Shown here piece by piece: positions 21,454 to 31,854 of a DNA stretch of 34,130 bases. Each line of letters starts with the position of its first letter. The stretch's first letter is position 1. The position numbers and the translations under genes were made by a program. Below the pieces are notes generated by a model that worked only from the letters and a program-made list of their open reading frames with translations, was not told the DNA's origin and did not search any database. The stretch comes from a virus (taxonomy: Duplodnaviria; Heunggongvirae; Uroviricota; Caudoviricetes): IMG/VR virus record IMGVR_UViG_2859799533_000006; one strand, given 5' to 3'.

Positions 21454-21564
21454 TCTTTAGTCTCACACCAGATACTTTGTTATTCAACGATGTTAACCGC
21501 GGGATTCCAAAGTATCAAGAAATTCTGTTACTTTCGTATCAACAGCCATGAGAGGAGAAGAAAA
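21454..21564. promoter_or_regulatory. divergent promoter/operator region between the repressor gene and the rightward operon
   Basis: 110-bp intergenic region with the repeated motif CAAAGTATCAA (21507..21517), an inverted partial copy gatactttg (21470..21478) and a related tactttcgtatcaac (21528..21542). Confidence 0.5.
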
Positions 21565-22221
21565 ATGAAGTCTTTAGGTGAACGTCTCATCAACGCACGG
21601 CAAAAAGCTGGGTTAACACAAGATGCGTTGGCTAAAAAAGCTGGGATCACCAGAGTTGCAATCAGTAAAGCCGAGCAAGGCCTTACAAAAAGTTTCAACG
21701 GTGACACCCTTTTTAAAGTTGCAGCTGCACTGCGGTGTTCACCGCAGTGGCTTCAGAACGGAGATGAAAAAGATAAGCATTGGGAAAATAATGTTAAGAG
21801 CTGCCCACAGAGAGACACAGCACACTCTTACCCTGTAATTAACTGGGTTCAGGCAGGATTATTCGCAACTTCTGGTGATGACTACAACATGTATGATCAG
21901 GATAATTGGAGGCATTCTGTAAAATACGCTGGTGAGAGGGGGTTCTGGCTGGAAGTGCACGGAGACTCAATGACTTCGCCCGTAGGAATAACATTTCCTG
22001 AAGGAATGTCGATCCTTGTCAACCCAGATAAAGAAGTTTTTTCAGGGTGTTACGTCATCGCCAGAAAAAAATCCACCAATGAAGCAACATTCAAAAAATA
22101 TATTTCTGACATGGGAAAGGCGTTTCTAAAGCCCCTTAATCCACAATATCCAATCATAGAAATGGACAATGATTGCGAAATAGTAGGTGTTGTGGTTGAT
22201 GCCAGGTGGGATATTTTCTGA
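21565..22221 (+). CDS. cI: CI-like repressor (HTH plus LexA/S24 peptidase domain)
   Basis: MKSLGERLINARQKAGLTQDALAKKAGITRVAISKAEQG (HTH) followed by an S24-like domain with GDSM (Ser) and a conserved Lys; GAGGAGAAG RBS. Confidence 0.85.
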   Translation: MKSLGERLINARQKAGLTQDALAKKAGITRVAISKAEQGLTKSFNGDTLFKVAAALRCSPQWLQNGDEKDKHWENNVKSCPQRDTAHSYPVINWVQAGLFATSGDDYNMYDQDNWRHSVKYAGERGFWLEVHGDSMTSPVGITFPEGMSILVNPDKEVFSGCYVIARKKSTNEATFKKYISDMGKAFLKPLNPQYPIIEMDNDCEIVGVVVDARWDIF

Positions 22222-22323: not shown

Positions 22324-22827
22324 ATGATCAATAAAGCTACAACTCTTGACTGTCTCGAAGAACTGAAAAACCTCGGCAGCCTCATTACACTAATAGCAAA
22401 AGCAACACCTGATGCTACACTCTCTAGCGATATAGAGTCATGCGCAGGACTGGCATGGGATATGACAAATAGCATATCCAGAAAGCTATCGTCAGCAATG
22501 CTTTTACAGAACAAAAATTCTGCAATCAACAACCGTCTTCGCACCCAACGCGAAGCCTGCGGCTTAACAACCGCCGAACTCGCCAGGCTGCTCGATCTCG
22601 ATGAAGAAATTATCATCCAGTGGGAGAGCGGAGAGTATGAACCAACTATCAGTATGCTTATCCCACTGGCAAATATTCTTGGCTGCGATCCGATGTGGCT
22701 GTTAACTGGTGAGGTTACTCCTCCGGAGCAACCAAAAAGTGAGGAGCAGCAACACCATGACGCATCTCAACAAGTTTGCCCCTTATCTCGCGAAGCTCTT
22801 CTGCGGAAGAACCAATACCAATGGTGA
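22324..22827 (+). CDS. XRE-family HTH protein at the rex-equivalent position
   Basis: 167 aa; central HTH (LRTQREACGLTTAELARLLDLDEEIIIQWESGEYEPTISMLIPLANILGCDPMWLL). Confidence 0.55.
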   Translation: MINKATTLDCLEELKNLGSLITLIAKATPDATLSSDIESCAGLAWDMTNSISRKLSSAMLLQNKNSAINNRLRTQREACGLTTAELARLLDLDEEIIIQWESGEYEPTISMLIPLANILGCDPMWLLTGEVTPPEQPKSEEQQHHDASQQVCPLSREALLRKNQYQW

Positions 22828-22975
22828 CATAATCGCCGCTTCGCCCTTCAAGGTACATGCGAACATTTTTATCAATCATTGCGGAAACAGTCTCAATATG
22901 AAAACACTTCTGAGACTCGCTATATAGCAGAACATATAAGTCAGCTGAGGAAGCCATGAAAAAGTTCGAAAACAT
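22715..22975 (-). CDS. hypothetical protein (antisense/convergent; uncertain)
   Basis: 86-aa ORF with GGAGAA RBS 6 nt upstream of its ATG; overlaps the 3' end of 22324..22827 and the 5' end of 22956..23321. Confidence 0.35.
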   Translation of the reverse strand: MFSNFFMASSADLYVLLYSESQKCFHIETVSAMIDKNVRMYLEGRSGDYVTIGIGSSAEELREIRGKLVEMRHGVAAPHFLVAPEE

Positions 22976-23321
22976 AACTGTTCTCCATGTTGATGACTTT
23001 GATTATACAAACCCGGAACTTCTCCCGGAGGTTGTAAAGGCAATAGATGTTGCCGATATAGTGATTAGAGAAAAGAGAATTGTCAAAAACAGGCTCGCAT
23101 GCACTTCAGGAGCAATGACAGAAACAACCTCACAGCAAGATAATTACGAAGGCATTTGTCTGGAGCCTGATTCATTTGCGGTAAATGTTTATCATTTATT
23201 GCATGCAACACAGGTATTACATATGTCCAGTAATCACGAAACGAAAACACTCGGCAGCGAAATTCTGAGTTTTGCATGTGAGTATACAAAAGCTGCTGCC
23301 GAAAAAGAATTAGCGCAATAA
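22956..23321 (+). CDS. hypothetical protein
   Basis: 121-aa ORF MKKFENITVLHVDDFDYTNPELLPEV... with GAGGAAG RBS. Confidence 0.45.
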   Translation: MKKFENITVLHVDDFDYTNPELLPEVVKAIDVADIVIREKRIVKNRLACTSGAMTETTSQQDNYEGICLEPDSFAVNVYHLLHATQVLHMSSNHETKTLGSEILSFACEYTKAAAEKELAQ

Positions 23322-23448
23322 CAACAAATATGCCCTGAACGTTTATTGCGGTTTTATCGCCGGGGATTGTTACAACCTTAATCCGCAGGAGGCTTTATTG
23401 TGACTTTTATAAAGAATATGGCATCACACAAGACCGCTGGATTTGCCC

Positions 23449-23756
23449 CTATATTTCCAGACATCTGTTATCACTTAACCCATTACAAGCCCGCTGCCGC
23501 AGATATTCCCGTGGCGAGCGATAACCCAGCGCACTATGCGGATGCCATTCGTTATAATGCTCGAACGCCTCTGCAAGGTTCTTTGCTGCCGTTAACCCGT
23601 CTGGTTTGGGCATGATACTGATGTAGTCACGCTTTATCGTTTTCACGAAGCTCTCTGCTATTCCGTTACTCTCCGGACTCCGCACCGCCGTGTTCTTCGG
23701 TTCAAGTCCCAACATCCGGGCGAACTGGCGTGTTTCATTAGCCCGGTAGCATGAAC
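23449..23756 (-). pseudogene. insD: IS2 transposase InsD, 3' fragment
   Basis: ORF 23449..23715 encodes the InsD C-terminus ([31 protein letters not shown]...); separated from the 5' part by IS629. Confidence 0.85.
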
Positions 23757-23798
23757 TGAACCGCCCCGGGTTTCCTGGAGAGTGTTTTATCTGTGAAC

Positions 23799-24689
23799 TC
23801 AGGCTGCCAGATCATCGTTTCCGATGGAAGCATAATAAGCTTTTTCTGCTTCTGCCGGAGGAGTATGGCCCAGCCTTTCCAGCAATCGTCGATTGTTATA
23901 CCAGTCCACCCACGTGAGTGTGGCCAGTTCCACTTCTGCACGGTTTTTCCAGCTCTTACGGTGTATTACCTCCGCTTTGTAAAGACCATTGATGCTCTCC
24001 GCCATCGCGTTGTCATACGAGTCGCCTGTACTTCCTGTTGATGCCAGTAATCCGGCTTCCTTAAGCCGCTGTGTGTAGGCCAGCGATACATACTGAGAAC
24101 CTTTATCACTGTGATGGACCGTGCCGGACGGTCGACGGGCCCATAACGCCTGCTCCAGAGCATCCAGCACGAATGTCGTTTCCATGGACGATGAGACCCG
24201 CCACCCCACGATGTATCCGGCAAACACATCAATGATGAACGCCACATAGACGAAGCCCTGCCATGTGCTGACGTAAGTAAAATCAGCCACCCACAGCTGG
24301 TCAGGTCGTTCTGCCACGAACTGACGGTTTACGCGGTCGCCTGCGGCAACGGCTTTCCGGCTGATGGTCGTACGGACCTTTTTACCCCGGAGAACACCGG
24401 CAAGTCCCATAACCGCCATGAGACGTGCCACAGTGCATCTGGCCACTCTGATACCTTCCCGTAACAACTGACGCCAGACTTTACGCACACCGTATACCTG
24501 ATGATTCCCATCGTATACGCGCAGTATCTCTTTCTTCAGCCAGTCATCGCGCTGCGCACGGGCACTGCGTTTATCAGGATGATGTCGCTGTTGCTGACAG
24601 TGGTAATACGTTGACGGGGCAATATGCAGTTCACTGCATACCGGTCCGACCCCGTACAGCTTACGCAGCTTATCCAGCAGTGGCATCAC
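23799..24689 (-). CDS. IS629 transposase OrfB (DDE integrase domain)
   Basis: 296-aa ORF with the IS3-family catalytic region; overlaps orfA in the arrangement for a -1 frameshift fusion. Confidence 0.9.
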
Positions 24690-25012
24690 TTTTTCCAGAG
24701 GCGGTCGAACTCCGCCTTCGCAAAATAAGCGGAAGCCTGGCGAAGGATATCGTTACTGCGGCGCAGTTCACGATTTTCACGCTCCAGCTCTTTCAGACGC
24801 TGACGTTCAGCGGTGGTGAGCCCTCCATCACCGCCCCCGGTATCCCGCTCATGCTGGCGAACCCAGACACGCAGAGTCTCCGGCGTACAGCCAATCTTTG
24901 GAGCAATGGAACAAATTGTCGCCCATTGTGAGTCATATTCGCCCTGACTTTCCAGAACCATACGGACTGCCCGTTGACGGACTTCGGGGGAAAAACGAGT
25001 ATTTTTAGTCAT
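24686..25012 (-). CDS. IS629 transposase OrfA
   Basis: 108-aa HTH/leucine-zipper protein [22 protein letters not shown]... Confidence 0.9.
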
Positions 25013-25066
25013 CCTGTTTACCTCTTTCTCAGGAAGTTTAGTCTCCAGGATTCCCGGGGCGGTTCA

Positions 25067-25667
25067 AACCATTATCCGTCAGCCACTCCACTGGAGACGA
25101 CGGAAGATCGTTGCCGAAGCGGCGTTCCACCGCTCCCAGCATGACGTCCTGTACTGTTTCACTGTTGAAGCCGCCGGTAGTCACCGCCCAGTGCAGTGCC
25201 TCACGATCACAGCAGTCCAGCGCGAACGTGACACGCAGTCTCTCTCCGTTATCACAGCAGAACTCGAACCCGTCAGAGCACCATCGCTGATTGCTTTCTT
25301 TCACGGCCACTCTGCCTGTATGTGCCCGTTTCGATGGCGGTACAGCAGGTTTTCGCTCAAGCAACAGCGCATTCTGGCGCATGATCCGGTAAACACGTTT
25401 GGCATTGATCGCAGGCATACCATCAAGTTCTGCCTGTCTGCGAAGCAGCGCCCATACCCGACGATAACCATACGTGGGCAGCTCTCCGATAACATGGTGT
25501 ATACGGAGAAGCACATCCGTATCATCAGTGTGACGACTGCGGCGGCCATCCATCCAGTCATCGGTTCGTCTGAGAATGACGTGCAACTGCGCACGCGACA
25601 CCCGGAGACAACGGCTGACTAAGCTTACTCCCCATCCCCGGGCAATAAGGGCGCGTGCGCTATCCAC
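25067..25667 (-). pseudogene. insD: IS2 transposase InsD, 5' fragment
   Basis: ORF 25038..25667 ([21 protein letters not shown]...) runs into the IS629 end at 25066. Confidence 0.85.
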
Positions 25668-25990
25668 TTTTTTGCCCGTCCATATTCAACGGCTTCTTTG
25701 AGGAGTTCATTTTCCATCGTTTTCTTGCCGAGCAGGCGCTGGAGTTCTTTAATCTGCTTCATAGCGGCAGCAAGTTCAGAGGCAGGAACAACCTGTTCTC
25801 CGGCGGCCACAGCAGTAAGACTTCCTTCCTGGTATTGCTTACGCCAGAGAAATAACTGGCTGGCTGCTACACCATGTTGCCGGGCAACGAGGGAGACCGT
25901 CATCCCCGGTTCAAAGCTCTGCTGAACAATTGCGATCTTTTCCTGTGTGGTACGCCGTCTGCGTTTCTCCGGCCCTAAGACATCAATCAT
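25625..25990 (-). CDS. insC: IS2 transposase InsC (OrfA)
   Basis: [56 protein letters not shown]... (121 aa). Confidence 0.9.
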
Positions 25991-26164
25991 CTGTACTCCA
26001 ATGACTAGTCTAAAAACTAGTATTAAGACTATCACTTATTTAAGTGATACTGGTTGTCTGGAGATTCAGGGGGCCAGTCTAACCGCCTGCCTTATTGCAC
26101 AATACGGTGAAAATTACATGCATATTGCCTGCTTATTTCTGCGTAAAGCATACGGGAGATAATA

Positions 26165-26365
26165 ATGCATCAGAAAACAGCAGAACACGAACAAACCAGA
26201 ATATTGCTGACCATCAAAAACGGGAAAGTAATATTCATTCGCCATGTTCATGACGATGAACTTGTAGGAACTCTTTCAACATTCCTGTTTATTGCAGAAA
26301 AGGCAGGATATGACGTTATTGCACCAGCAGATGAAGATGAAGATGAAGATGAAGATGAGGAATAA
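26165..26365 (+). CDS. small protein with poly-acidic C-terminal tail
   Basis: MHQKTAEHEQTRILLTIKNGKVIFIRHVHDDELVGTLSTFLFIAEKAGYDVIAPADEDEDEDEDEE; the tail is encoded by a (GATGAA)n repeat. Confidence 0.45.
   Translation: MHQKTAEHEQTRILLTIKNGKVIFIRHVHDDELVGTLSTFLFIAEKAGYDVIAPADEDEDEDEDEE
26330..26362 (+). repeat. hexanucleotide tandem repeat (GATGAA)x4 plus GATGAG-GAA
   Basis: Read directly from the sequence at the 3' end of ORF 26165..26365. Confidence 0.9.
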
Positions 26366-26370
26366 ATATC

Positions 26371-26967
26371 ATGCAATACGATGAATTCCAGGCTGAAGCA
26401 ACAGCCAATGGTATACGAACTGGCAGTATGACGATTGATTATCACGACGCCATACGTCGTCTGGATGCCGGAGAATTCGATACTCCTAATGTGCGAGGTT
26501 TACGTATCCTTCAGTGTCTGGCGCAAGCCGACGAAGCAGGATTACTGGGTAAACTTCCGGTTGAGATGAAGGTTGCTCAGTGGCGATGGTTGTATGTGAC
26601 GACATTCATCAACGAAGAAGAAGACAAGAACGGCACAATTGATATCCTGAATGAACACGGAACAACTGAACACGGAACAACTGAACACGCCGTGGTATAT
26701 AACGGGATGTATGGGTTTATGACGATATATCCCGGCCCCATTCGATTTGCCTTACAACAGTATATTGAATGGAATTTAATTCAAAAATACGGCGAAGCTG
26801 AAGGAATGGGAAGAGCGCTGTTTCTTTATCAGAAAATGCTCACTACTTCCCCTGATAAAGGTTTCATTCTTTCAGATATGGGTCGAGAAGGGCTTGAAAT
26901 CCTTCTGGATGAAATTATTAACGAAATGAATACTCATGGCATGCAATCCGAAACAGATATTAAGTAA
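26371..26967 (+). CDS. hypothetical early-left-operon protein with internal EHGTT repeat
   Basis: 198-aa ORF starting 5 nt after the previous stop; contains a 15-bp tandem repeat encoding EHGTTEHGTTEH. Confidence 0.55.
   Translation: MQYDEFQAEATANGIRTGSMTIDYHDAIRRLDAGEFDTPNVRGLRILQCLAQADEAGLLGKLPVEMKVAQWRWLYVTTFINEEEDKNGTIDILNEHGTTEHGTTEHAVVYNGMYGFMTIYPGPIRFALQQYIEWNLIQKYGEAEGMGRALFLYQKMLTTSPDKGFILSDMGREGLEILLDEIINEMNTHGMQSETDIK
26653..26689 (+). repeat. 15-bp tandem repeat gaacacggaacaact, about 2.5 copies
   Basis: Copies at 26653..26667 and 26668..26682, partial at 26683..26689. Confidence 0.9.
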
Positions 26968-26977
26968 AAGGGACCAC

Positions 26978-27226
26978 ATGACCGTTATCGAGTATATCCA
27001 GGAAAATCCAGATTGCAGTAGAGAAGATATATCCCTCGCACTTGGAAGAAGCGCAACTTCTATCAGTAATAAATTATCACGGTTATTGTGGAATGGGTTA
27101 ATAGTACGAACTGGAGAAAAAAACAAAATGATTCTGTACTGCGTAAACAATCTGCCGTTTGGATACAGCAATCCCCTAAGTGTTATGTTCAACCAGTTAC
27201 TTAAACAGGTAAGAAATGGCAACTGA
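26978..27226 (+). CDS. small putative winged-helix DNA-binding protein
   Basis: MTVIEYIQENPDCSREDISLALGRSATSISNKLSRLLWNGLIVRTGEKNKMILY...; start chosen at the internal Met of ORF 26936..27226. Confidence 0.45.
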   Translation: MTVIEYIQENPDCSREDISLALGRSATSISNKLSRLLWNGLIVRTGEKNKMILYCVNNLPFGYSNPLSVMFNQLLKQVRNGN

Positions 27227-27533
27227 CTCACAACTAACCATAGAAACGGCCCTGAATGTCGGCCTGGCGCTCCTTGGTTATTTTTACATCGTGTTCTGCA
27301 GCGGACGGTGGCTGTCGCTGTTGTTCCTGAAAAAATGGAATAAACGCCGTAAGCAGGATGAACGCCAGAAGGCAATGAATGCGTTTTCCGAAGCCTTCGG
27401 AATTGACGGCATGGAACCAGGGGATCCAGCTCGCGCAATCAGCAGAGGGGGTGTAGTAATCCTTGTATATCGGAGTGAAGAGAAAAATGACGATCACAAA
27501 ACAACGAGTAGAAAAAATCATATATCGCCATGA
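27216..27533 (+). CDS. small membrane protein
   Basis: N-terminal TM helix LNVGLALLGYFYIVFCSGRWLSLLFL followed by a basic stretch. Confidence 0.4.
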   Translation: MATDSQLTIETALNVGLALLGYFYIVFCSGRWLSLLFLKKWNKRRKQDERQKAMNAFSEAFGIDGMEPGDPARAISRGGVVILVYRSEEKNDDHKTTSRKNHISP

Positions 27534-27801
27534 AATGGGACTGAACAGCGATGTCACTGCCGAAGAGGTTTATGACCTGGCTGTACTGGCGCTGAATTTA
27601 TCAAATATCGCAAACCTGAAGCGATACGAGCTTGATATGGATGGTTGCGACTCGTGCGGTCAGGATTGTGGCGCAGATATGACTGAAGATCCTGATGGTG
27701 ATTATGTCCTGTTTGATGACGTGGTTAAGTTGTTTGAATTTGATACAACCACTCAAAAGTTAGAAATCCCGGCAAAGGAGGCTGCCAGTGAGCAAGATTG
27801 A
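27487..27801 (+). CDS. hypothetical acidic protein with CxxC motif
   Basis: MTITKQRVEKIIYRHEMGLNSDV...DGCDSCGQDCGADMTEDPDGDYVLFDD. Confidence 0.45.
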   Translation: MTITKQRVEKIIYRHEMGLNSDVTAEEVYDLAVLALNLSNIANLKRYELDMDGCDSCGQDCGADMTEDPDGDYVLFDDVVKLFEFDTTTQKLEIPAKEAASEQD

Positions 27802-28242
27802 CTATCAGGCACTGCGCGAGGCGGCGGAACAGGCAACGCAAGATGAATGGGTAGCATATATTTTGCCGGGTCATAACGGCATTTATCCTGCGCGCACGTC
27901 TGAGGGTAGGCATTGCGGATACTTTATTGACTGGCCTGGCGTCTGTCAGGGGCGGGAGAGCATCAGCATCAGAACCTACGCAGTGAATTGCAATGACGCA
28001 TGGCTAAACACCGAAGGTGATGACATCTCCGGCTCATACGTTAAGTACAAAGACCATCAGGAAGTGGTTGCCGCTCTTGAAGCCAAGTGCGCGGCGCTGG
28101 CAGCGGAGAATGCGGGAATAAAGTCTGCAATTCCAGAATCACGGGATATTGAGGATGACAATGACAATATGGATGACGTATCTCTCGCGGAAGACTTCGG
28201 GTTCAATCATGCAATAGAACGGATGAGGAGACAGATTGAACC
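27788..28242 (+). pseudogene. Ead/Ea22-like protein, C-terminus disrupted by IS629 insertion two codons before the native stop
   Basis: MSKIDYQALREAAEQATQDEWVAY... is the Ead/Ea22-like N-terminal signature; reading across the 3-bp target duplication gives ...RMRRQID-T-stop. Confidence 0.65.
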
Positions 28243-28278
28243 GCCCCGGGTTTCCTGGAGAGTGTTTTATCTGTGAAC

Positions 28279-29169
28279 TCAGGCTGCCAGATCATCGTTT
28301 CCGATGGAAGCATAATAAGCTTTTTCTGCTTCTGCCGGAGGAGTATGGCCCAGCCTTTCCAGCAATCGTCGATTGTTATACCAGTCCACCCACGTGAGTG
28401 TGGCCAGTTCCACTTCTGCACAGTTTTTCCAGCTCTTACGGTGTATTACCTCCGCTTTGTAAAGACCATTGATGCTCTCCGCCATCGCGTTGTCATACGA
28501 GTCGCCTGTACTTCCTGTTGATGCCAGTAATCCGGCTTCCTTAAGCCGCTGTGTGTAGGCCAGCGATACATACTGAGAACCTTTATCACTGTGATGGACC
28601 GTGCCGGACGGTCGACGGGCCCATAACGCCTGCTCCAGAGCATCCAGCACGAATGTCGTTTCCATGGACGATGAGACCCGCCACCCCACGATGTATCCGG
28701 CAAACACATCAATGATGAACGCCACATAGACGAAGCCCTGCCATGTGCTGACGTAAGTAAAATCAGCCACCCACAGCTGGTCAGGTCGTTCTGCCACGAA
28801 CTGACGGTTTACGCGGTCGCCTGCGGCAACGGCTTTCCGGCTGATGGTCGTACGGACCTTTTTACCCCGGAGAACACCGGCAAGTCCCATAACCGCCATG
28901 AGACGTGCCACAGTGCATCTGGCCACTCTGATACCTTCCCGTAACAACTGACGCCAGACTTTACGCACACCGTATACCTGATGATTCCCATCGTATACGC
29001 GCAGTATCTCTTTCTTCAGCCAGTCATCGCGCTGCGCACGGGCACTGCGTTTATCAGGATGATGTCGCTGTTGCTGACAGTGGTAATACGTTGACGGGGC
29101 AATATGCAGTTCACTGCATACCGGTCCGACCCCGTACAGCTTACGCAGCTTATCCAGCAGTGGCATCAC
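28279..29169 (-). CDS. IS629 transposase OrfB
   Basis: Identical to the copy 1 OrfB except one residue (Cys for Arg in SWKNCAEVE). Confidence 0.9.
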
Positions 29170-29492
29170 TTTTTCCAGAGGCGGTCGAACTCCGCCTTCG
29201 CAAAATAAGCGGAAGCCTGGCGAAGGATATCGTTACTGCGGCGCAGTTCACGATTTTCACGCTCCAGCTCTTTCAGACGCTGACGTTCAGCGGTGGTGAG
29301 CCCTCCATCACCGCCCCCGGTATCCCGCTCATGCTGGCGAACCCAGACACGCAGAGTCTCCGGCGTACAGCCAATCTTTGGAGCAATGGAACAAATTGTC
29401 GCCCATTGTGAGTCATATTCGCCCTGACTTTCCAGAACCATACGGACTGCCCGTTGACGGACTTCGGGGGAAAAACGAGTATTTTTAGTCAT
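29166..29492 (-). CDS. IS629 transposase OrfA
   Basis: Identical to copy 1 OrfA. Confidence 0.9.
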
Positions 29493-29776
29493 CCTGTTTA
29501 CCTCTTTCTCAGGAAGTTTAGTCTCCAGGATTCCCGGGGCGGTTCAGATACCTGAAACGCCAACCACTGATGCTTTCCTGGCTGAAGTCCGGGCGCAGGG
29601 GTGGATGCTGCTATAGAAGCTGCAAAAAATCTGGTGGCCCAAGAATATGAGTGTAAGGATTTCAAAGCGGCGCAGAGTGATTGCTGTATGCACCCTAGTT
29701 CAGACCTGGTAGGGAAGGTTGAAATGACTGAGTGGTTAGTTGACTTTGCTGCCCAGCTTCGCAAAGGAGGCAATCA

Positions 29777-30313
29777 GTGAGCGAAATTAATTACCAGGCA
29801 CTGCGTGAGGTGGCGGAACGTGCAATTCCAGCAATGGAACGCCTGTTAATGTTGCCAGTTGATGATGATTTGTTAAGTGAACAGGAACTTAAAGATTACG
29901 GTGTGGATATTGATGCGCTCAATGCCTTCAAATTTCTGACCGGACCAGAAACCGTGCTGGCACTACTGGATGAACGGGAAAGAAACCAGCAATACATCAA
30001 ACGCCGCGACCAGGAGAACGAGGATATTGCGCTTACGGTTGGGAAGCTGCGCGTTGAGCTTGAAGCAGCCAAATCAAAACTCAACGAGCAGCGCGAGTAT
30101 TACGAGGGAGTTATCTCTGATGGGTGCAAGCGTATTGCTGAACTGGAAGCGCGGGAAGTTCAATTACCGACTCGCTACGACCTTCGATATGGACACCCGA
30201 TAAATGCATATGAGCGACAAGTCATGATACCTAAAGAAAATGGCAGTTGGCTTTACCTGATTGACCTAGAACACGCATTACGCGTCGCTGACATTCGCAT
30301 CAAAGGAGAGTGA
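29777..30313 (+). CDS. Ead/Ea22-like protein
   Basis: MSEINYQALREVAERAIPAMERL... shares the N-terminal signature with ORF 27788; coiled-coil middle; GGAGG RBS. Confidence 0.65.
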   Translation: MSEINYQALREVAERAIPAMERLLMLPVDDDLLSEQELKDYGVDIDALNAFKFLTGPETVLALLDERERNQQYIKRRDQENEDIALTVGKLRVELEAAKSKLNEQREYYEGVISDGCKRIAELEAREVQLPTRYDLRYGHPINAYERQVMIPKENGSWLYLIDLEHALRVADIRIKGE

Positions 30314-30614: not shown

Positions 30615-30686
30615 TGAAGTGGCACACTGAATTTGGCCACCTGAACAGAGGTGATATGCTCACCTCAGAACAACACAGGTGCTCCA

Positions 30687-31854
<1,168 letters not shown>

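What the first reader, a model, noticed from the sequence alone, without database searches (positions are those of the whole stretch)
26165..26967. Early-left gene pair: poly-acidic-tailed small protein plus a repeat-containing 198-aa protein
A 66-aa protein ending in DEDEDEDEDEE is followed 5 nt later by a 198-aa protein carrying an EHGTT repeat. Highly acidic small proteins from phage early regions are often DNA mimics or anti-restriction factors, and the repeats are slippage-prone.
Basis: inference. Interest (0 to 1): 0.5.

Follow-up and report, generated by a model that had tools for sequence, protein, structure and literature searches.

The report
Two uncharacterised prophage early genes
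Two real but uncharacterised early genes of a decaying lambda-like prophage in Shigella boydii; their eye-catching repeats are recent replication-slippage products, and the larger protein is a distant relative of a small protein encoded beside the primase gene of satellite phage P4.

Summary
Both ORFs exist as described: 26165-26365 (66 aa) and 26371-26967 (198 aa), on the + strand, with good ribosome-binding sites and dN/dS of 0.09-0.45. The repeats are real but are not family features.

- **Acidic tail.** It is a (GATGAA)n microsatellite. n is 2, 3, 5, 6 or 9 in E. coli prophages that are otherwise almost identical. More distant homologues (phiP27, Fels-1, Klebsiella phages) have no such tail.
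- **EHGTT repeat.** It is a 15-nt duplication carried by the Shigella boydii protein variant. It was absent from all 122 matching complete E. coli genomes and lies in a low-confidence loop of the model.

Neither protein matches any Pfam, NCBIfam, PADLOC or PDB entry. The 198-aa model is confident (pTM 0.80) but has no structural neighbour.

Profile comparison links its core to P4 ORF106 (DUF5375) and to PHROG 1737. I recall ORF106 as Cnr, which regulates copy number by binding the replication initiator.

The small gene always lies next to a gene of this superfamily.

In this window an IS2::IS629 insertion separates the pair from the upstream part of the operon.

The DNA-mimic or anti-restriction reading has no support. 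My best guess, at low confidence, is a pair of acidic protein-binding modulators, possibly of replication. Interest is low to moderate.

The parts
26165..26365 (+). Small gene (66 aa), PHROG 340. Conserved beta-hairpin plus helix core (residues 12-46), followed by a disordered acidic tail.
   Evidence: ORF. PHROG 340 at E 3.6e-23. AF2 gives strands 12-18 and 21-28 and helix 37-46, with pLDDT about 80-85 in the core and 53-68 in the tail. dN/dS 0.22-0.45. SD GGGAGA just upstream.
26329..26358 (+). In-frame hexanucleotide microsatellite (GATGAA)n that encodes the (DE)n tail. There are 5 units here.
   Evidence: TRF: period 6, 5.0 copies, 100 % matches. n = 2, 3, 5, 6 or 9 in near-identical E. 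coli prophages. The resulting proteins of 60, 62, 64, 66, 68 and 74 aa are on record.
26356..26360 (+). Shine-Dalgarno GAGGA for the 198-aa gene, embedded in the last codons of the small gene.
   Evidence: Sequence ...GATGAGGAATAAATATCATG. The repeat units are added upstream of it, so its distance to the ATG does not change with n.
26371..26967 (+). Large gene (198 aa), PHROG 1515. An acidic alpha/beta protein with no Pfam domain and no structural neighbour. Its core is remotely related to P4 ORF106 (DUF5375) and to PHROG 1737.
26652..26689 (+). 15-nt tandem duplication (TGAACACGGAACAAC x2.5) that gives EHGTT-EHGTT-EH. It is carried by the Shigella boydii protein variant.
   Evidence: TRF. All other homologues have 1.5 copies, a 7-nt direct repeat that could template slippage. 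0 of 122 E. coli genomes with the region carry the duplication. The exact 198-aa protein is named only from S. boydii, on 39 contigs. Residues 100-103 have pLDDT below 50.
26936..27226 (+). Downstream winged-helix (MarR-like) gene. The ORF, counted from its first ATG, overlaps the 3' end of the 198-aa gene by 32 nt.
   Evidence: HTH_24 and MarR_2 hits, PHROG 1687. Annotated as an 84-aa MarR family regulator in Stx phages. The family-wide C-terminal P-V-x-H of the large protein is missing in this clade, which ends ...GMQSETDIK.
23438..26081 (.). IS insertion (IS2 interrupted by IS629), absent from phage PhiR49_2. It splits a 37-aa ORF and separates the gene pair from the upstream part of the operon.
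   Evidence: Window 22537-23437 aligns to L001 5087-5987, and window 26082-27836 aligns to L001 5983-7710. The 5-bp overlap fits a target duplication. The 1310-bp element 23757-25066 recurs at 28237-29546 at 99.9 % identity. Transposase ORFs and the ALIL frameshift pseudoknot at 24615-24731. The IS names are from my own knowledge of the sequences.
21490..22221 (+). CI-type repressor (HTH plus S24 peptidase), which marks the immunity region upstream of the operon.
   Evidence: Pfam HTH_3 and Peptidase_S24. Synteny with PhiR49_2.

Best explanation
These are two accessory early genes of the leftward operon of lambdoid and HK97-like temperate phages of Enterobacteriaceae. They are separable but habitually linked.

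Shown here:
- The small protein (PHROG 340) has a core of about 35 residues, a beta-hairpin plus a helix. In one E. coli/Shigella clade it is followed by a disordered acidic tail. The tail length drifts by slippage of an in-frame GATGAA microsatellite.
- The large protein (PHROG 1515) is an acidic alpha/beta protein. Its helix carrying the WRW motif, together with its C-terminal helix-helix-hairpin-helix domain, is remotely homologous to P4 ORF106 (DUF5375) and to PHROG 1737.
- The small gene always lies directly next to a gene of this superfamily, overlapping it or a few bases away.

Inferred:
- From memory, P4 ORF106 is Cnr, which does not bind DNA itself but binds the DNA-binding domain of the P4 alpha initiator to limit replication. 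By analogy with Cnr, the large protein most likely works by binding another protein. The target may be a replication initiator or primase-helicase of the phage itself, of a satellite or of a competing element.
- The small protein is probably its partner or adaptor.
- The two repeats lie in disordered or loop regions and are probably near-neutral length polymorphisms rather than the functional core.
- In this S. boydii prophage the pair is cut off from the upstream part of the operon by IS2::IS629 and may no longer be expressed normally.
For: Context:
- The genes lie in the early-left operon.
- Both are under purifying selection.

Repeats:
- The tail is not conserved.
- Repeat number varies on near-identical backgrounds.
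- The EHGTT duplication is carried by the S. boydii variant and lies in a low-pLDDT loop.

Large protein:
- The family is consistently acidic, with median pI 4.8 and net charge -12, and has no HTH or other DNA-binding domain.
- A7 against DUF5375 by hhalign gives score 34.2, probability 58-61 %, E 1e-4 over 93 columns. The reversed template scores 16.3 and ten column shuffles score 8-14.
- In the reverse search with a DUF5375 HMM, the top 18 of 2643 sequences are all large-family members.
- Both families end in P-[VT]-x-H at the very C-terminus.
- PHROG 1737 proteins match profile positions 136-201 of the large family, at E 2e-5 to 6e-4.
- In satellite-like islands the large-protein homologue sits 1-3 genes upstream of a primase-helicase gene.

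Linkage of the two genes:
- In 34 of 38 phage records that hold either gene, both are present.
- In 9 of 9 distinct loci the small gene abuts a large or PHROG-1737 gene.

Cnr: PMC8628076 states that the P4 cnr gene lies between epsilon and alpha and controls plasmid copy number.
Against: - The homology to DUF5375 is remote. The Pfam DUF5375 model does not hit any large-family member at E <= 0.5, and hhalign probability is only about 60 %.
- That ORF106 is cnr, and the Cnr-alpha binding mechanism, come from my memory of Terzano et al. 1994 and Ziegelin et al. 1997. Neither paper could be read here.
- This prophage replicates with O and DnaC-type proteins, not an alpha-type primase. No cognate target is therefore evident in cis.
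- The window's copy lacks the conserved C-terminal P-V-x-H motif.
- The large protein occurs without the small one in all four satellite-like or other contexts examined, so the partnership is not obligatory.
- No interaction or phenotype was tested.
Confidence: 0.3

Rival explanations
1. The small acidic-tailed protein is a DNA mimic or anti-restriction (anti-defence) factor, perhaps acting together with the large protein.
For: - The genes lie in an early operon of a temperate phage, among rapidly shuffled small genes. This is the sort of place where anti-defence genes are found (general knowledge).
- Both proteins are acidic.
- Neither has any assigned function, so the idea is not excluded.
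Against: - The poly-acidic tail is clade-specific and variable in length. It is absent from the phiP27, Fels-1, Klebsiella and EKP1 homologues.
- The conserved core is a hairpin plus helix of about 35 residues, with no extended acidic surface.
- There are no hits to Pfam, NCBIfam, PADLOC or PDB families, including the known anti-restriction folds.
- Large-family members also occur in satellite-like islands next to replication genes.
Confidence: 0.1
2. A toxin-antitoxin or abortive-infection pair, with a small labile acidic antitoxin upstream of a larger toxin.
For: - A small gene lies 5 nt upstream of a larger one, and the larger gene's ribosome-binding site lies inside the small gene's last codons.
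- The small protein has a disordered C-terminus.
- ParE-like small genes occur in the same operons of related phages.
Against: - The large gene occurs without the small one in L006-L013 and in AsXd-1.
- The small gene occurs without the large one in Fels-1.
- In Klebsiella phages three other genes separate the two.
- Frameshifted small-gene variants exist in databases.
- PADLOC gives no hit, and no enzymatic or toxin domain was found.
Confidence: 0.05
3. The small protein is a free-standing copy of a C-terminal domain of Bro/Ant-type anti-repressors, and it modulates the lysis-lysogeny switch.
For: - There are weak profile hits to the C-terminal parts of two PHROG families annotated as anti-repressor: phrog_4792 positions 199-240 of 268 at E 5.6e-6, and phrog_2379 positions 127-175 of 187 at E 6e-4.
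- ORF6N, AntA or Rha-type genes lie nearby in several related operons.
Against: - There is no detectable similarity to the Ant, Rha/Ash or Roi-like proteins of this prophage or of an Stx phage, nor to an adjacent ORF6N protein.
- The repressor here has an S24 autocleavage domain, so induction needs no anti-repressor.
- PHROG labels are annotations, not tested functions.
Confidence: 0.1
4. In this particular genome the pair is a decaying remnant with no current function, in an IS-ridden defective prophage.
For: - IS2::IS629 is inserted 83 bp upstream. A second IS629 truncates the Ea22-like gene downstream, and there are further transposase genes at 30651-31854.
- The large protein has a loop duplication carried by the S. 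boydii variant and lacks the family's C-terminal motif.
- Many frameshifted alleles of both genes exist in databases.
Against: - Both reading frames are intact, with good ribosome-binding sites.
- The same allele without the duplication is found on at least 1000 contigs, including the ST131 lineage.
- dN/dS against an Stx-phage allele is 0.23-0.40.
- An IS end can supply an outward promoter (general knowledge, not tested here).
Confidence: 0.3

Closest known systems
P4 ORF106 (Pfam DUF5375), which I recall as Cnr, the copy-number regulator that binds the alpha primase-helicase-initiator
   Same: - Profile-profile similarity covers the helix with the W/Y-R-R/W motif and the C-terminal domain of about 65 residues (E 1e-4, clean controls).
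- Both families end in P-[VT]-x-H.
- Both are encoded in early operons of mobile elements.
- In satellite-like islands the large-family gene lies just upstream of the primase gene, as ORF106 does in P4.
   Different: - The large protein is about 200 aa against 106 aa. It has an extra N-terminal domain of about 60 residues and a beta-hairpin insert at residues 88-120.
- It does not reach the Pfam DUF5375 threshold.
- Here it sits in a lambdoid leftward operon, far from the O and DnaC-type replication genes.
- The window copy has lost the terminal motif.
- Binding to an initiator is untested.
PHROG 1737 (proteins of about 120 aa with unknown function, in HK97-like, Klebsiella and Fels-1 early-left operons)
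   Same: - It shares the C-terminal domain of about 65 residues with the large family (E 2e-5 to 6e-4; hhalign E 3.5e-4).
- It is encoded immediately upstream of the small-protein gene in Fels-1, Klebsiella P18-100, CharmingMan and EKP1.
   Different: - It is shorter, with a different N-terminus and no terminal P-V-x-H.
- It is absent from this window. The 121-aa protein at 22956-23321 is unrelated, belonging to PHROG 5451.
Acidic DNA-mimic anti-restriction proteins such as T7 Ocr, ArdA and T7 gp5.9
   Same: These are small, acidic proteins expressed early from a mobile element.
   Different: - In those proteins the acidity lies on a conserved folded surface. Here it is a disordered tail of variable length that most of the family lacks.
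- There is no sequence or fold match.
Coding microsatellites (simple-sequence length polymorphism, as in bacterial contingency loci)
   Same: This is a perfect short tandem repeat whose copy number (2-9) differs among otherwise identical alleles.
   Different: The unit is 6 nt, so changes never shift the reading frame. It varies protein length and does not act as an on/off switch. It leaves the downstream ribosome-binding site in place.

Membership tests
DUF5375 / P4 ORF106 (Cnr-like) | Match to the Pfam PF17345 model above its threshold | tested here: not met
   P4 ORF106 scores 209 bits. The window protein, its C-terminal fragment and 46 family members give no DUF5375 hit at E <= 0.5-1.
DUF5375 / P4 ORF106 (Cnr-like) | Remote (profile-profile) homology of the core | tested here: met
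   hhalign score 34.2, probability 58-61 %, E 1e-4, 61-93 columns. The reversed template scores 16.3 and ten column shuffles score 8-14. In the reverse hmmsearch the top 18 of 2643 sequences are all large-family members. This is moderate strength, not proof.
DUF5375 / P4 ORF106 (Cnr-like) | C-terminal P-[VT]-x-H end | tested here: not met
   The motif is present in nearly all large-family members and in all 15 DUF5375 sequences. The window protein ends ...GMQSETDIK and close E. coli alleles end ...GMPEGQ.
DUF5375 / P4 ORF106 (Cnr-like) | Gene directly upstream of an alpha-type primase-helicase gene | tested here: not met
   In the window the gene lies in the leftward operon, and the replication genes are of the O and DnaC type on the other arm. 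Distant family members do lie 1-3 genes upstream of a primase gene.
DUF5375 / P4 ORF106 (Cnr-like) | Binds the initiator's DNA-binding domain and limits replication | not testable with these tools
   This needs interaction and replication assays. The mechanism itself is recalled from Ziegelin et al. 1997, which could not be read here.
DNA-mimic / anti-restriction proteins | Sequence or fold match to a known family (Ocr, ArdA, ArdB/KlcA, gp5.9, Arn and others) | tested here: not met
DNA-mimic / anti-restriction proteins | Conserved, structured, strongly negative surface | tested here: not met
   The acidity of the small protein sits in a disordered tail that is absent from distant homologues. 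Family median net charge is -5, and the phiP27 copy has net charge 0.
DNA-mimic / anti-restriction proteins | Relief of restriction or defence in vivo | not testable with these tools
   This needs plating assays.
Type II toxin-antitoxin pair | Obligate co-occurrence and adjacency of the two genes | tested here: not met
   The large gene occurs without the small one in L006-L013 and L017. The small gene occurs without the large one in Fels-1. Three genes separate them in Klebsiella phages.
DUF905 (YkfF-like), suggested by a UniRef name on a Klebsiella homologue | Match to PF06006, or profile similarity to YkfF | tested here: not met
   YkfF hits PF06006 at 4e-43. None of 37 small-family members does. 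hhalign probability is 0.2 %.
Anti-repressor C-terminal domain (PHROG 4792 / 2379) | Significant profile match, and similarity to actual Ant-type proteins | tested here: inconclusive
   PHROG hits at E 5.6e-6 and 6e-4. No similarity to four Ant, Rha, Roi or ORF6N proteins from these loci.
Phase-variable contingency locus | Repeat-number change switches the reading frame or a promoter on and off | tested here: not met
   The units are 6 nt and 15 nt, so all observed variants stay in frame. The downstream SD-to-ATG distance does not change.

The most novel reading that the evidence does not exclude
The 198-aa family, PHROG 1737 and P4 Cnr (DUF5375) form one superfamily of acidic proteins that bind replication initiators, with the small hairpin-helix protein as their partner.

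On this reading, lambdoid and HK97-like helper phages carry them in their leftward operon to interfere with the primase-helicase of resident satellites (P4-like or PICI-like) or of rival phages. That would make them an anti-satellite or inter-element replication weapon. The tail microsatellite would tune partner affinity.
Probability: 0.08. Interest if true: 0.65.

Novelty: new variant of a known kind. Interest (0 to 1): 0.3.

Why it matters
As submitted, the finding is mostly ordinary. It describes two hypothetical prophage genes whose striking repeats are recent slippage products and carry no functional signal.

Three by-products of the check may be useful to phage biologists.

1. **A link to P4 ORF106.** PHROG 1515, an orphan family present in Stx-converting and ST131 prophages, now has a testable remote link to P4 ORF106 (DUF5375). 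I recall ORF106 as the copy-number regulator Cnr. The family also has a paralogue in the same operons, PHROG 1737.
2. **A candidate protein partnership.** The small protein is always encoded next to a member of that superfamily, which suggests the two proteins interact.
3. **A natural series of tail-length variants.** The GATGAA tract gives proteins of 60-74 aa on an otherwise identical background, which makes tail function easy to test.

If the Cnr-like mechanism holds, these genes would be replication modulators, or weapons used between mobile elements, and not anti-restriction factors.

Tried and rejected
- **Database searches for both proteins.** Pfam, NCBIfam and PADLOC gave nothing above noise. 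PDB searches with single sequences and with family profiles found only chance hits.
- **Bacillus phage hits.** The '>=99 % identical' hits are 31-nt matches of the GAAGAT repeat to an SSB acidic tail and are irrelevant.
- **DUF905 / YkfF link.** A UniRef label suggested it. I rejected it.
- **Similarity of the small protein to nearby proteins.** There is none to the Ant, Rha/Ash, Roi and ORF6N proteins tested.
- **The window's 121-aa protein at 22956-23321.** Its size and position suggested a PHROG 1737 equivalent, but it is unrelated, belonging to PHROG 5451.
- **Other P4 proteins.** P4 epsilon, ORF151, cI and ORF88 show no similarity to either family.
- **Species-representative genomes.** Scanning with the large-family alignment failed. 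One alignment had no usable conserved stretch, and the other gave no confirmed locus.
- **Literature.** Searches for PHROG numbers, protein accessions and DUF5375 found nothing relevant. The original cnr papers are not held.
- **RNA and inverted repeats.** No Rfam family and no inverted repeat lies in 26082-27300.
- **Promoter and terminator scan.** It was not enriched over shuffled sequence.
Full report
**1. The observation**

The first is 26165-26365 (66 aa, ending DEDEDEDEDEE). The second is 26371-26967 (198 aa, carrying EHGTT-EHGTT-EH), starting 5 nt after the first stops.

Tandem Repeats Finder reports a perfect 6-nt array (5.0 copies, 26329-26358) and a perfect 15-nt array (2.5 copies, 26652-26689).

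Each gene has a Shine-Dalgarno sequence. That of the second gene (GAGGA, 26356-26360) lies inside the last acidic codons of the first.

Both are real coding genes. Homologues stay 40-65 % identical in protein while synonymous sites are saturated, and dN/dS is 0.09-0.45.

No Rfam family and no inverted repeat lies in the region.

**2. Context**

The window is an IS-ridden lambdoid prophage. The exact 198-aa protein is on record only from Shigella boydii, on 39 contigs.

The nearest phage is Escherichia phage PhiR49_2, which is 98 % identical over 26082-27836. Its gene order is cro< cI> HTH protein> 121-aa> 37-aa> small> large> (winged-helix) DUF4752> ... Ea22 ... xis int. The same block occurs in many Stx1- and Stx2-converting phages. 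It was found in 203 of 5426 complete E. coli genomes, always on the chromosome. 'Early-left pair' is therefore correct.

In the window, 23438-26081 is an insertion relative to PhiR49_2. I recognise the elements as IS2 interrupted by IS629. The 1310-bp element recurs at 28237-29546, and a 5-bp overlap of the flanks fits a target duplication. The insertion splits the 37-aa ORF and ends 83 bp before the small gene. The second IS629 copy truncates the Ea22-like gene.

**3. The repeats are slippage products, not family features**

*Acidic tail*
- Most E. coli homologues of the small protein have 60 aa and end ...PADEDEE. Versions of 62, 64, 66, 68 and 74 aa also exist.
- I fetched five E. coli alleles plus PhiR49_2 and aligned them with the window. 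(GATGAA)n has n = 2, 3, 5, 6 or 9.
- Over the rest of the roughly 770 nt the sequences differ by only 0-2 substitutions. All five E. coli alleles encode the identical downstream protein WP_001199104.1.
- That is recurrent, recent, in-frame slippage.
- More distant homologues lack the DE tail altogether: phiP27 L07, Fels-1 STM0898.2n, the Klebsiella prophage proteins of 84 aa, CharmingMan and EKP1.

*EHGTT repeat*
- Every other homologue has a single unit (193 or 190 aa).
- All 122 E. coli genomes that match the 91-nt region span 76 nt, one unit fewer.
- Single-copy alleles already contain TGAACAC...TGAACAC, a 7-nt direct repeat that can template the duplication.
- In the structure model the duplicated residues fall in a loop with pLDDT below 50.

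**4. The small protein**

- *Family.* It belongs to PHROG 340, of unknown function.
- *Conserved core.* The motif is R-V-L-L-x-I-E-N-G-x-V-I ... D-D-E ... F ... A-G.
- *Model.* AlphaFold2 with 37 sequences gives a beta-hairpin (12-28) plus one helix (37-46) at pLDDT 80-85. The termini are disordered. So small an element probably needs a partner or a dimer; that is inference.
- *Anti-repressor lead.* Weak PHROG hits to the C-terminal parts of two families labelled 'anti-repressor' (E 5.6e-6 and 6e-4) could not be backed by comparison with real Ant-type proteins.
- *DUF905 lead.* A UniRef 'DUF905' label on a Klebsiella homologue is not supported.

**5. The large protein**

- *Family.* It belongs to PHROG 1515, of unknown function.
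- *Model.* The AlphaFold2 model is confident (pLDDT 82.5, pTM 0.80). It has an N-terminal beta-meander with helices, a long helix (64-87), a beta-hairpin insert, and a C-terminal helix-helix-hairpin-helix unit (121-188).
- *Family size.* A profile search of 1.84 billion representative proteins found 101 relatives. Almost all are stand-alone proteins of 190-220 aa without Pfam domains.
- *Charge.* The family is consistently acidic, with median pI 4.8 and net charge -12.
- *Conserved motifs.* They include W-R-W-[LIV]-V-A..F, N-G, Y-P..R, L-S..G-R..L..L-H-D and a terminal P-[VT]-x-H.
- *This clade.* The window's clade has lost the terminal motif, at the junction with the overlapping winged-helix gene.

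**6. Relatives of the large protein**

- The family profile weakly hits PHROG 1737 proteins of about 120 aa in the same operons of Klebsiella, HK97-like and Fels-1 phages. The match covers the C-terminal 65 residues at E 2e-5 to 6e-4.
- It also hits P4 ORF106, which is Pfam DUF5375.
- With a 15-sequence DUF5375 alignment built from species-representative genomes, hhalign gives score 34.2, probability 58 %, E 1e-4 over 93 columns. Large-protein residues 64-183 align with ORF106 residues 7-100, skipping the hairpin insert.
- Controls are clean. The reversed template scores 16.3 and ten column-shuffled templates score 8-14. In the reverse direction a DUF5375 HMM ranks 18 large-family members ahead of every one of about 2580 unrelated ORFs.
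- Both families end in P-[VT]-x-H.
- I therefore regard remote homology as likely. Membership of DUF5375 in the Pfam sense fails.

PMC8628076 states that P4's cnr gene lies between epsilon and alpha, belongs to a family present in 90 % of P4-like elements, and controls plasmid copy number. Two further points come from my memory of Terzano et al. 1994 and Ziegelin et al. 1997, which are not held here. One is that cnr is ORF106. The other is that Cnr binds the DNA-binding domain of the alpha protein and not DNA.

**7. Linkage of the two genes**

Among phage records, 34 hold the small gene and 36 the large one by tblastn. HMM searches add the small gene in CharmingMan and EKP1, so 34 of 38 records hold both.

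The pair is nevertheless separable:
- Klebsiella phages have three genes between them.
- Fels-1 has only the small gene.
- Satellite-like islands (with AlpA, Ash or AntA, and a primase-helicase) and another lambdoid lineage have only the large one. There it is preceded by unrelated genes: proteins of 59 and 75 aa, a ParE-like protein and an ORF6N protein.
- In the satellite-like islands the large gene lies 1-3 genes upstream of the primase gene.

One regularity stands out. In all nine distinct loci with the small gene, it abuts a gene of the large or PHROG-1737 superfamily. It lies either directly upstream of the large gene or directly downstream of PHROG 1737, with overlapping or nearly touching stop and start codons. 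In Aeromonas phage AsXd-1 the small gene has been deleted, which fuses its tail to the PHROG 1737 protein.

**8. Interpretation**

*Shown*
- These are two conserved accessory early genes.
- A hypervariable in-frame microsatellite encodes a non-conserved tail.
- A loop duplication is carried by the S. boydii variant.
- The large protein has an orphan fold with a probable remote link to DUF5375 and PHROG 1737.
- The small gene is consistently adjacent to that superfamily.

*Inferred*
- Both act by protein-protein binding and not on DNA.
- By analogy with Cnr, the target could be a replication initiator or primase-helicase, of the phage or of a competing element.
- The small protein is a partner or adaptor.

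I put about 0.3 on this mechanism.

The DNA-mimic or anti-restriction idea rests on a feature that most of the family lacks, and no test here supports it (about 0.1). It is not excluded experimentally.

*Other rivals*
- A toxin-antitoxin reading is contradicted by the separability of the genes.
- In this S. boydii prophage the pair may also be poorly expressed or decaying. The signs are the IS insertion upstream, the lost C-terminal motif and the loop duplication.

**9. Verdict**

Its value lies in the testable Cnr/DUF5375 link and the candidate partnership between the two proteins, not in the repeats.

Noticed in passing
window 23438-26081 and 28237-29546: IS2 interrupted by IS629 is inserted into a 37-aa ORF of the early-left operon. 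A second IS629 copy, 99.9 % identical, truncates the Ea22-like gene at 27788-28276. The IS3-family ALIL frameshift pseudoknot is detected at 24615-24731. The prophage is clearly degenerate.
   Followed up: partly
window 30651-31854: Another IS3-family transposase pair (HTH_Tnp_1, then rve) lies further down the same operon, between a second Ea22-like gene (29777-30313) and a DUF551-containing ORF.
   Followed up: no
window 26936-27226, against the 3' end of 26371-26967: The MarR-like winged-helix ORF overlaps the end of the 198-aa gene by 32 nt. In this clade the family-wide C-terminal P-V-x-H of the large protein is replaced (...GMQSETDIK or ...GMPEGQ). This suggests a mosaic recombination junction inside the gene's last codons.
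   Followed up: partly
L016 2370-3001, L017 2346-2986, L006 708-932: In related phages a ParE-like protein of 73-74 aa (PF24732, E 2.5e-18) lies between the small and large genes or just upstream of the large gene. In CharmingMan and AsXd-1 it is followed by a conserved basic protein of 137-140 aa. This may be a separate toxin-antitoxin-like module.
   Followed up: no
L017 (Aeromonas phage AsXd-1) 1967-2374: The PHROG 1737 protein here is 135 aa and ends ...GSYSDTNS, the C-terminal tail of the Klebsiella/CharmingMan small protein. The small gene seems to have been deleted, fusing its tail to the upstream gene.
   Followed up: partly
L018 (record named Elizabethkingia phage EKP1): This phage carries an enterobacterial-style early-left operon with homologues of the small protein, the large protein and PHROG 1737, together with DinI and PrtN-like genes. 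That is odd for a Bacteroidota host, so the host assignment may be doubtful.
   Followed up: no
L007 5652-5879 and L010: Satellite-like islands with a large-family gene also carry a 75-aa ORF between it and the primase gene. PMC8628076 mentions an uncharacterised 75-aa family between epsilon and alpha in 61 % of P4-like elements. I did not check whether it is the same family.
   Followed up: no
(database alleles): Many database alleles of both genes are frameshifted or truncated (for example P0016, P0027, P0031-P0035, P0055-P0061). This fits frequent decay of these accessory genes in resident prophages.
   Followed up: no
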